DNA from: Escherichia coli
GTDB lineage: Bacteria; Pseudomonadota; Gammaproteobacteria; Enterobacterales; Enterobacteriaceae
Assembly (NCBI RefSeq): GCF_045037415.1
Contig: NZ_CP173438.1
DNA: 64,000 nt
Strand: one strand, 5' to 3'
Both the position numbers and the translations under genes were made by a program. The notes below the pieces were generated by a model. That model saw only the letters and a list, made by a program, of their open reading frames with translations. It was not told the origin of the DNA and ran no database searches. Shown here one piece after another: positions 11,098 to 11,892 of this stretch (within the stretch, counting starts at the first letter, position 1; each line of letters starts with the position of its first letter).

Positions 11098-11892
11098 TCA
11101 TAATAATTGCGGCGGCGCAAAGCGACGGTTGTTTAAGACGGGCAGTTGCGCGCGCACCTGACGCACACGTTCGGGCGTCACTTCCGCCATAATGAGTGCA
11201 GGCATTTCTGACGCTGCCGCAATGGTGACGCCAAAGGGATCTATAATCCGGCTTTGCCCGATATTTTTGTTCCCGCACTCCCCCGCCGCCACCATATAAC
11301 AGGTGGTATCCAGCGCACGAGCGGCAAGCAACGTTGACCAGTGATGCTCTTTGAGCGGCCCACGAACCCAGGCGGCAGGAAGTACCAGTATTTCAGCTCC
11401 CTGTAATGCCTGTGCCAGCGCCAGCTCTGGAAAGCGTAAGTCATAACAGGTCATCAGACCGACCTTCATCCCCTCCACCTCCAGTAACGGAGCTATTTCA
11501 TTACCAGCATCAACATGGCGTGATTCCTGAATGGCAAATGCATCATAGAGATGCAGTTTGGCATAACGGGCGACGATGTTTCCTGCCTGTAGCGCCACCA
11601 GCATATTCCATGCGCGCCCCGGTGTTGAAGGAACATGAATCGTCAGAATTGTCGTCATCATGTTACGTTTACTTTCTCGCCGTAAACGACCGAGGAATTC
11701 GCCTTCCAGCAGTTGTGCTGATTTAACCGATAGATCTGCATCATGATCATCACGCGCCAGTAATGCTTCCGGCAGGACAAACAGCGAAACCTCGTTTTCC
11801 GCCGCCTGCGCCATCAACGAGGCACAAATCTCAACGTTCTTTTCCCACACAGATGTAACAGCAAACTGTCCTGCGGCAACCAGCATTGCCAC
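11098..11892 (-). CDS. ybeM: C-N hydrolase (nitrilase/amidase superfamily) protein, intact reading frame
   Basis: 264 aa uninterrupted ORF with carbon-nitrogen hydrolase-like sequence; position between tatE and crcB. Confidence 0.75.

What the first reader, a model, noticed from the sequence alone, without database searches (positions are those of the whole stretch)
11098..11892. ybeM reading frame is intact here
A continuous 264-codon C-N hydrolase-family ORF is present. In K-12 MG1655 ybeM is, to my recollection, annotated as a frameshifted pseudogene. An intact copy would mean this strain retains a functional amidase or nitrilase-like enzyme.
Basis: partly seen in the sequence, partly recalled or inferred. 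Interest (0 to 1): 0.25.

Follow-up and report, generated by a model that had tools for sequence, protein, structure and literature searches.

The report
Intact ybeM deaminated-glutathione amidase gene
This E. coli strain has an intact ybeM gene for a small metabolite-repair amidase, which is the usual state in E. coli; the laboratory strain K-12 and about one genome in six carry a broken copy.

Summary
An uninterrupted ORF lies at window 11098..11892 on the minus strand. It has 264 codons from a GTG, but the real start is most likely the ATG at 11886, giving 262 aa.

The protein is a carbon-nitrogen hydrolase (Pfam E = 2.5e-41). It passes NCBI's curated model for deaminated glutathione amidase (450.7 bits, cutoff 355). 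The Glu40-Lys110-Cys147 triad is present and aligns with the catalytic residues of solved Nit proteins.

K-12 MG1655 does annotate ybeM (b4581) as a pseudogene. Its copy lacks one G at CDS nucleotide 200 (codon 67), which truncates the product to 75 aa, before the catalytic Lys and Cys.

The intact gene is not special, though. The gene is present in 5424 of 5426 complete E. coli genomes. Only 860 of them (about 16%, including wild isolates) carry the K-12 deletion allele. O157:H7 and BL21 are intact. The window is almost identical to strain SK1144, where RefSeq already names this exact protein (WP_001295861.1).

dN/dS of about 0.08 among intact alleles indicates purifying selection.

Verdict: the finding is correct, already known and ordinary.

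The parts
11098..11886 (-). ybeM CDS (262 aa plus stop) from the ATG start; deaminated glutathione amidase, a Nit1-type carbon-nitrogen hydrolase
   Evidence: ORF; Pfam PF00795 at 2.5e-41; NCBIfam NF033621 at 450.7 bits against a cutoff of 355; identical to RefSeq CDS WP_001295861.1 in SK1144
11887..11892 (-).
   Evidence: The sequence reads ...CAGGAGGTGGCAATGCTG.... AGGAGG abuts the GTG with no spacer but lies 5 nt before the ATG. PGAP and the K-12 annotation both start at the ATG.
11891..11896 (-). Shine-Dalgarno-like AGGAGG
   Evidence: Read directly from the sequence
11767..11769 (-). Codon for catalytic Glu40 (in LPE)
   Evidence: Aligns with Glu54 of NitFhit 1EMS; position computed
11557..11559 (-). 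Codon for catalytic Lys110 (in YAKLHL)
   Evidence: Aligns with Lys127 of NitFhit; position computed
11446..11448 (-). Codon for the catalytic nucleophile Cys147 (in MTCYD)
   Evidence: Aligns with the Cys of yeast Nit2 4H5U. That Cys is replaced by Ser in the mutant chain 4HGD. Position computed.
11686..11688 (-). Codon 67 (CGT, Arg). K-12 lacks the G at CDS nt 200 (window 11687), which causes the K-12 frameshift
   Evidence: Pairwise alignments

Best explanation
This is the intact, ancestral form of E. coli ybeM. It encodes a 262-aa cytoplasmic enzyme of the nitrilase (carbon-nitrogen hydrolase) superfamily, the bacterial counterpart of eukaryotic Nit1. Its most likely job is metabolite repair. 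Transaminases occasionally deaminate glutathione to give deaminated glutathione (dGSH). The enzyme would hydrolyse the amide bond of dGSH to give 2-oxoglutarate and cysteinylglycine. It would do so through a thioacyl-enzyme intermediate on Cys147, with Glu40 acting as general base and Lys110 stabilising the tetrahedral intermediate. Shown here: the reading frame is intact, the protein belongs to the family, the catalytic residues are present, the gene is conserved under purifying selection, and the K-12 frameshift is located. Inferred: the substrate and the chemistry, from the family assignment and the published Nit1/YbeM work. The K-12 pseudogene is a natural 1-bp deletion allele. It is carried by a minority lineage of E. 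coli that includes wild isolates.
For: The ORF is intact. Pfam CN_hydrolase matches at 2.5e-41. NCBIfam de_GSH_amidase NF033621 scores 450.7 bits against a cutoff of 355. The paralogous YafV-type model NF007757 scores only 61 bits against 249. The best solved relatives are Nit1-type proteins: NitFhit 1EMS at 6.9e-30 and yeast Nit2 4H5U at 3.4e-27. The catalytic Glu, Lys and Cys align with them. RefSeq annotates the identical CDS as deaminated glutathione amidase. The protein is 98.9% identical to the O157:H7/BL21 protein WP_000959109.1, and none of the 3 differences touches the triad. dN/dS is 0.07-0.09 between intact alleles. The K-12 deletion is located at nt 200, and the pseudogene annotation is confirmed. 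K-12 ybeM is used as a neutral pseudogene insertion site (PMC7242477). [quoted passage not shown]
Against: No activity, expression or structure was measured for this allele. The primary paper (Peracchi et al. 2017, PNAS) could not be read in the held library. The claim that E. coli YbeM itself was assayed on dGSH therefore rests on my recollection and on the NCBIfam model name. This allele carries V18, E32 and H124 where O157/BL21 have A, D and R; the effect is untested. About 16% of E. coli genomes live without the gene, and Nit1 loss is reported to have no detrimental consequences in other organisms. Its contribution to fitness is therefore small.
Confidence: 0.88

Rival explanations
1. The ORF is intact, but the enzyme's physiological substrate is something other than deaminated glutathione. 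It could be an omega-amidase acting on 2-oxoglutaramate or 2-oxosuccinamate (Nit2-like), or an amidase for some other N-acyl compound.
For: The nitrilase superfamily is promiscuous. The sequence also gives weaker hits to aguB, nitrilase and other amidase models and to mouse Nit2 2W1V at 3.4e-22. Substrate specificity was not tested here.
Against: Only the dGSH amidase model is passed (450.7 bits against 355). All other models fall far below their cutoffs, including the YafV-type amidohydrolase model (61 against 249). The top solved relatives are Nit1-type proteins (NitFhit, yeast Nit2) rather than Nit2-type omega-amidases.
Confidence: 0.08
2. The ORF is intact only by chance or because loss of function is recent. 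The gene would be silent or on its way to decay in this strain, as it has decayed in K-12.
For: The gene is dispensable. 860 of 5424 genomes carry the K-12 frameshift, and at least one further genome has an independent frameshift at nt 49. No promoter was identified convincingly on the minus strand upstream of the gene.
Against: dN/dS of about 0.08 between intact alleles shows continuing purifying selection. All catalytic residues are kept. A strong Shine-Dalgarno sequence is present. Transcript changes were measured for ybeM in CFT073.
Confidence: 0.03
3. The K-12 'pseudogene' is a sequencing or annotation artefact, so there is no real difference between this strain and K-12.
For: Single-base indels are a common assembly error. 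One low-quality assembly (UTME-9) has frameshifts in every gene of the locus.
Against: The same 61-mer spanning the deletion occurs in 860 independent complete genomes. These include MG1655, MC4100 and unrelated wild isolates from Mozambique, China and the USA.
Confidence: 0.01

Closest known systems
E. coli YbeM, deaminated glutathione amidase (RefSeq WP_001295861.1; NCBIfam NF033621)
   Same: Identical in sequence to the SK1144 CDS and set in the same lipA-tatE-ybeM-crcB-cspE-pagP context. 98.9% identical to the O157:H7/BL21 protein.
   Different: Nothing; it is this protein.
K-12 MG1655 ybeM pseudogene (b4581; formerly split as ybeH/ybeM)
   Same: Same locus and 97.6% nucleotide identity.
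   Different: K-12 lacks G at CDS nt 200. Its product is 75 aa, which keeps Glu40 but lacks Lys110 and Cys147. K-12 also has two extra non-synonymous changes (V33A, V37A) that are absent from wild isolates carrying the same deletion.
Eukaryotic Nit1 / yeast Nit2 / Nit domain of C. elegans NitFhit (PDB 1EMS, 4H5U)
   Same: Same CN-hydrolase domain with aligned Glu-Lys-Cys catalytic residues (plus the conserved 'ES' Glu121); E-values 7e-30 and 3e-27. The published function of Nit1 is dGSH amidase.
   Different: Sequence identity is low, there is no Fhit fusion, and the protein is shorter. It lacks the insertion seen in yeast Nit2, whose match splits into two stretches.
E. coli YafV-type amidohydrolase (NCBIfam NF007757), the Nit2-like omega-amidase paralogue
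   Same: Same superfamily.
   Different: Scores 61 bits against a cutoff of 249, so it is not a member of that family.

Membership tests
Nitrilase / carbon-nitrogen hydrolase superfamily (Pfam PF00795) | Full-length match to the CN_hydrolase domain above the gathering score | tested here: met
   142.2 bits against a cutoff of 23.2, E = 2.5e-41, residues 5-247 covering profile positions 2-255 of 256
Nitrilase / carbon-nitrogen hydrolase superfamily (Pfam PF00795) | Catalytic Glu-Lys-Cys triad at the conserved positions | tested here: met
   E40, K110 and C147 align with E54 and K127 of NitFhit and with the catalytic Cys of yeast Nit2, which is Ser in mutant 4HGD. The additional conserved Glu (E121, 'QES') is also aligned.
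Nitrilase / carbon-nitrogen hydrolase superfamily (Pfam PF00795) | Alpha-beta-beta-alpha sandwich fold | not tested
   No structure prediction was run; the fold is inferred from sequence matches to solved members.
Deaminated glutathione amidase (NCBIfam NF033621; Nit1/YbeM type) | Score above the curated cutoff of the family model over its full length | tested here: met
   450.7 bits against a cutoff of 355, residues 5-263 of the 264-aa ORF covering profile positions 2-260 of 260
Deaminated glutathione amidase (NCBIfam NF033621; Nit1/YbeM type) | Conserved chromosomal position of E. coli ybeM (between tatE and crcB) | tested here: met
   Same gene order as K-12 and SK1144
Deaminated glutathione amidase (NCBIfam NF033621; Nit1/YbeM type) | Hydrolysis of dGSH to 2-oxoglutarate and cysteinylglycine | not testable with these tools
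   Needs an enzyme assay. The primary paper is not held in the library.
Yersinia-type deaminated glutathione amidase (NCBIfam NF043013) | Score above the curated cutoff | tested here: not met
   82.7 bits against a cutoff of 500
YafV-type amidohydrolase / omega-amidase (NCBIfam NF007757) | Score above the curated cutoff | tested here: not met
   61.1 bits against a cutoff of 249

The most novel reading that the evidence does not exclude
Loss of ybeM might be more than neutral decay. It is lost in the K-12-type deletion lineage (about 16% of complete genomes), and there is at least one independent frameshift. A reported NsrR ChIP peak lies inside the gene. Together these could mean that YbeM has a conditional role, for example in thiol or nitrosative stress, so that keeping or losing it is adaptive in different niches.
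Probability: 0.05. Interest if true: 0.35.

Novelty: already known. Interest (0 to 1): 0.08.

Why it matters
The practical consequences are modest. K-12 is the exception at this locus, so K-12-based metabolic models and knockout collections lack a glutathione-repair step that most natural E. coli have. Using ybeM as a 'neutral pseudogene' insertion site is valid only in strains carrying the K-12 allele. The finding opens no new question.

Tried and rejected
- I tried three times to read the primary Nit1/dGSH paper (Peracchi et al. 2017), by PubMed id, PMC id and DOI. It is not held, so I relied on a review that cites it and on the NCBIfam model.
- The most divergent hit (UTME-9, 84% identity) is not a distinct allele. 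Every gene in that locus is frameshifted, so it is a poor assembly.
- I scanned for promoters and terminators around the gene. The counts match shuffled sequence, and no convincing minus-strand promoter for ybeM appeared.
- I tested whether the NsrR half-site consensus is enriched in the window. It is not: 5 matches against 9.2 expected.
- I scanned the whole window against Rfam. Nothing lies in or next to ybeM, and there is no fluoride riboswitch upstream of crcB.
- I did not run a structure prediction. The sequence evidence was already decisive, and the tool does not return coordinates for checking triad geometry.

Full report
**Observation.** The six-frame ORF list shows a 264-aa ORF at window 11098..11892 on the minus strand, starting with GTG. 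The sequence just upstream reads ...CAGGAGGTGGCAATGCTG.... The AGGAGG abuts the GTG with no spacer but lies 5 nt before the ATG at 11886. That ATG is the start used by RefSeq in strain SK1144 and by the K-12 annotation. The gene is therefore best described as 11098..11886, 262 aa.

**Identity of the locus.** The window is E. coli chromosome. It differs from strain SK1144 (NZ_AP018784.2, 3446085-3510084) at only 2 of 64000 positions, neither of them in ybeM. The local gene order is lipB, ybeF (pseudogene), lipA, tatE, ybeM, crcB, cspE, pagP, dcuC, the same order as in K-12. In SK1144 the identical CDS is WP_001295861.1, 'deaminated glutathione amidase'.

**What the protein is.**
- It matches Pfam CN_hydrolase over its whole length (E = 2.5e-41).
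- It passes the curated NCBIfam model NF033621, de_GSH_amidase (450.7 bits against a cutoff of 355).
- It falls far below the cutoffs of all other nitrilase-superfamily models. These include the YafV-type amidohydrolase model (61 against 249) and the Yersinia-type dGSH amidase model (83 against 500).
- Its closest solved relatives are Nit1-type proteins: the Nit domain of C. elegans NitFhit (1EMS, 6.9e-30) and yeast Nit2 (4H5U, 3.4e-27). Mouse Nit2 follows at 3.4e-22.

**Catalytic residues.** In those alignments Glu40 (LPE) pairs with NitFhit Glu54, and Lys110 (YAKLHL) pairs with Lys127. Cys147 (MTCYD) pairs with the catalytic Cys, which is the residue changed to Ser in the yeast Nit2 mutant chain 4HGD. 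The further conserved Glu of the superfamily ('ES', Glu121) is aligned as well.

**The K-12 comparison.** NC_000913.3 annotates ybeM (b4581) at 658031..658818 as a pseudogene of 788 nt. Aligned with the window's CDS, it shows 18 substitutions and one deletion, the G at CDS nt 200 in codon 67 (GGTCGTTTA here, GGAC-TTTA in K-12). The K-12 reading frame ends after 75 aa (…[14 protein letters not shown]). That product keeps Glu40 but lacks Lys110 and Cys147. The rest of the protein is readable in another frame. The literature treats K-12 ybeM as a pseudogene and uses it as a neutral insertion site (PMC7242477).

**How unusual is an intact copy?** It is not unusual.
- The gene is found in 5424 of 5426 complete E. 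coli genomes.
- A 61-nt K-12 probe spanning the deletion matches exactly in 860 records (15.9%). In every listed row from the remaining records the probe aligns to 62 bases, one more than the K-12 probe (one partial row: 58 probe bases to 59), so the missing base is present.
- The carriers of the deletion are not only laboratory K-12 derivatives. They include human isolates from Mozambique, China and the USA, as well as river, food and frog isolates. PGAP marks these copies 'frameshifted'. The K-12 lesion is therefore a natural lineage polymorphism that predates the laboratory strain.
- A different frameshift, loss of an A in a run at nt 49, occurs in NCCP 14541. I cannot tell whether that one is real or an assembly error.
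- O157:H7 and BL21 carry an intact gene encoding the same protein as each other (WP_000959109.1). The window's protein differs from it at three non-catalytic positions: V18A, E32D and H124R.

**Selection.** Nei-Gojobori dN/dS between intact alleles is 0.07-0.09, as expected for a working gene. K-12 differs from a wild carrier of the same deletion at only two sites, and both are non-synonymous (V33A, V37A). That is what relaxed constraint after inactivation would give, but two sites are only an anecdote.

**Mechanism.** By family membership, the enzyme should use the standard nitrilase-superfamily chemistry. Cys147 attacks the amide carbonyl, Glu40 acts as base, and Lys110 stabilises the oxyanion. 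The thioacyl intermediate is then hydrolysed. The likely substrate is deaminated glutathione, a side-product of transaminases. The products, 2-oxoglutarate and cysteinylglycine, can be recycled. A review describes Nit1 in exactly these terms and notes that it occurs in many bacteria. [quoted passage not shown] That fits the tolerated loss of ybeM in about one in six E. coli genomes. I recall that E. coli YbeM itself was assayed on dGSH in Peracchi et al. 2017, but I could not read that paper here. Family membership and the catalytic residues are shown; substrate and activity are inferred.

**Surroundings.** Consensus scans found no convincing promoter for ybeM and nothing beyond chance. The Rfam scan found no RNA element in or next to the gene. 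A ChIP-seq study of CFT073 reports an NsrR peak centred 345 nt into ybeM and a 0.30-fold change in ybeM expression under NO (PMC5320621). The window has ATGATGCATTT at CDS nt 341-351, one mismatch from the NsrR half-site consensus I recalled (AANATGCATTT). Such matches are no more frequent in the window than in shuffled sequence, so this remains only a lead.

**Verdict.** The finding is accurate, but it describes the normal, already annotated state of a known gene. Interest is low.

Noticed in passing
window 8936-9460 (+), between lipB and lipA: ybeF (a LysR-type regulator, intact in K-12) is broken here. Relative to K-12, about 392 bp are missing from inside the gene; the breakpoint is near window 9455-9459 and corresponds to roughly nt 525-916 of the 954-nt K-12 gene. 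PGAP marks the SK1144 copy as frameshifted and incomplete. This strain therefore has ybeM intact and ybeF broken, the reverse of K-12.
   Followed up: partly
window 11536-11546 (-), inside ybeM (CDS nt 341-351): ATGATGCATTT is one mismatch from the NsrR 11-bp half-site consensus (recalled as AANATGCATTT). It sits where a CFT073 ChIP-seq study reports an NsrR peak centre (+345 in ybeM; PMC5320621). Such matches are not enriched in the window (5 found, 9.2 expected).
   Followed up: partly
L003 (NCCP 14541) 307-1094; CDS nt 49: This genome has an independent 1-bp deletion in an A-run near the start of ybeM, different from the K-12 lesion. It could be a second natural loss or an assembly error.
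   Followed up: partly
L001 (K-12) ybeM codons 33 and 37, compared with L004/L008/L009: K-12 carries two extra non-synonymous changes (V33A, V37A) and no synonymous ones relative to wild isolates with the same frameshift. This is consistent with decay after inactivation.
   Followed up: partly
window 34045 and 38787: These are the only two differences (A here, G in SK1144) between the 64-kb window and strain SK1144 (NZ_AP018784.2). The source is SK1144 itself in another assembly version, or a very close relative.
   Followed up: no
window 12368-12816 (-), 25795-25903 (+), 29708-29801 (-), 58100-58141 (+): Rfam matches above the gathering score: a cspA-type thermoregulator over the cspE region, the rnk leader, STnc70 sRNA upstream of ahpC, and ES036 (CssrF) sRNA. 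All are expected for this E. coli region.
   Followed up: no
L005 (UTME-9) whole locus: Every gene from dcuC to ybeF is annotated as frameshifted at about 84% identity. This looks like an uncorrected long-read assembly rather than biology, and it is a caution when counting pseudogenes in this collection.
   Followed up: partly
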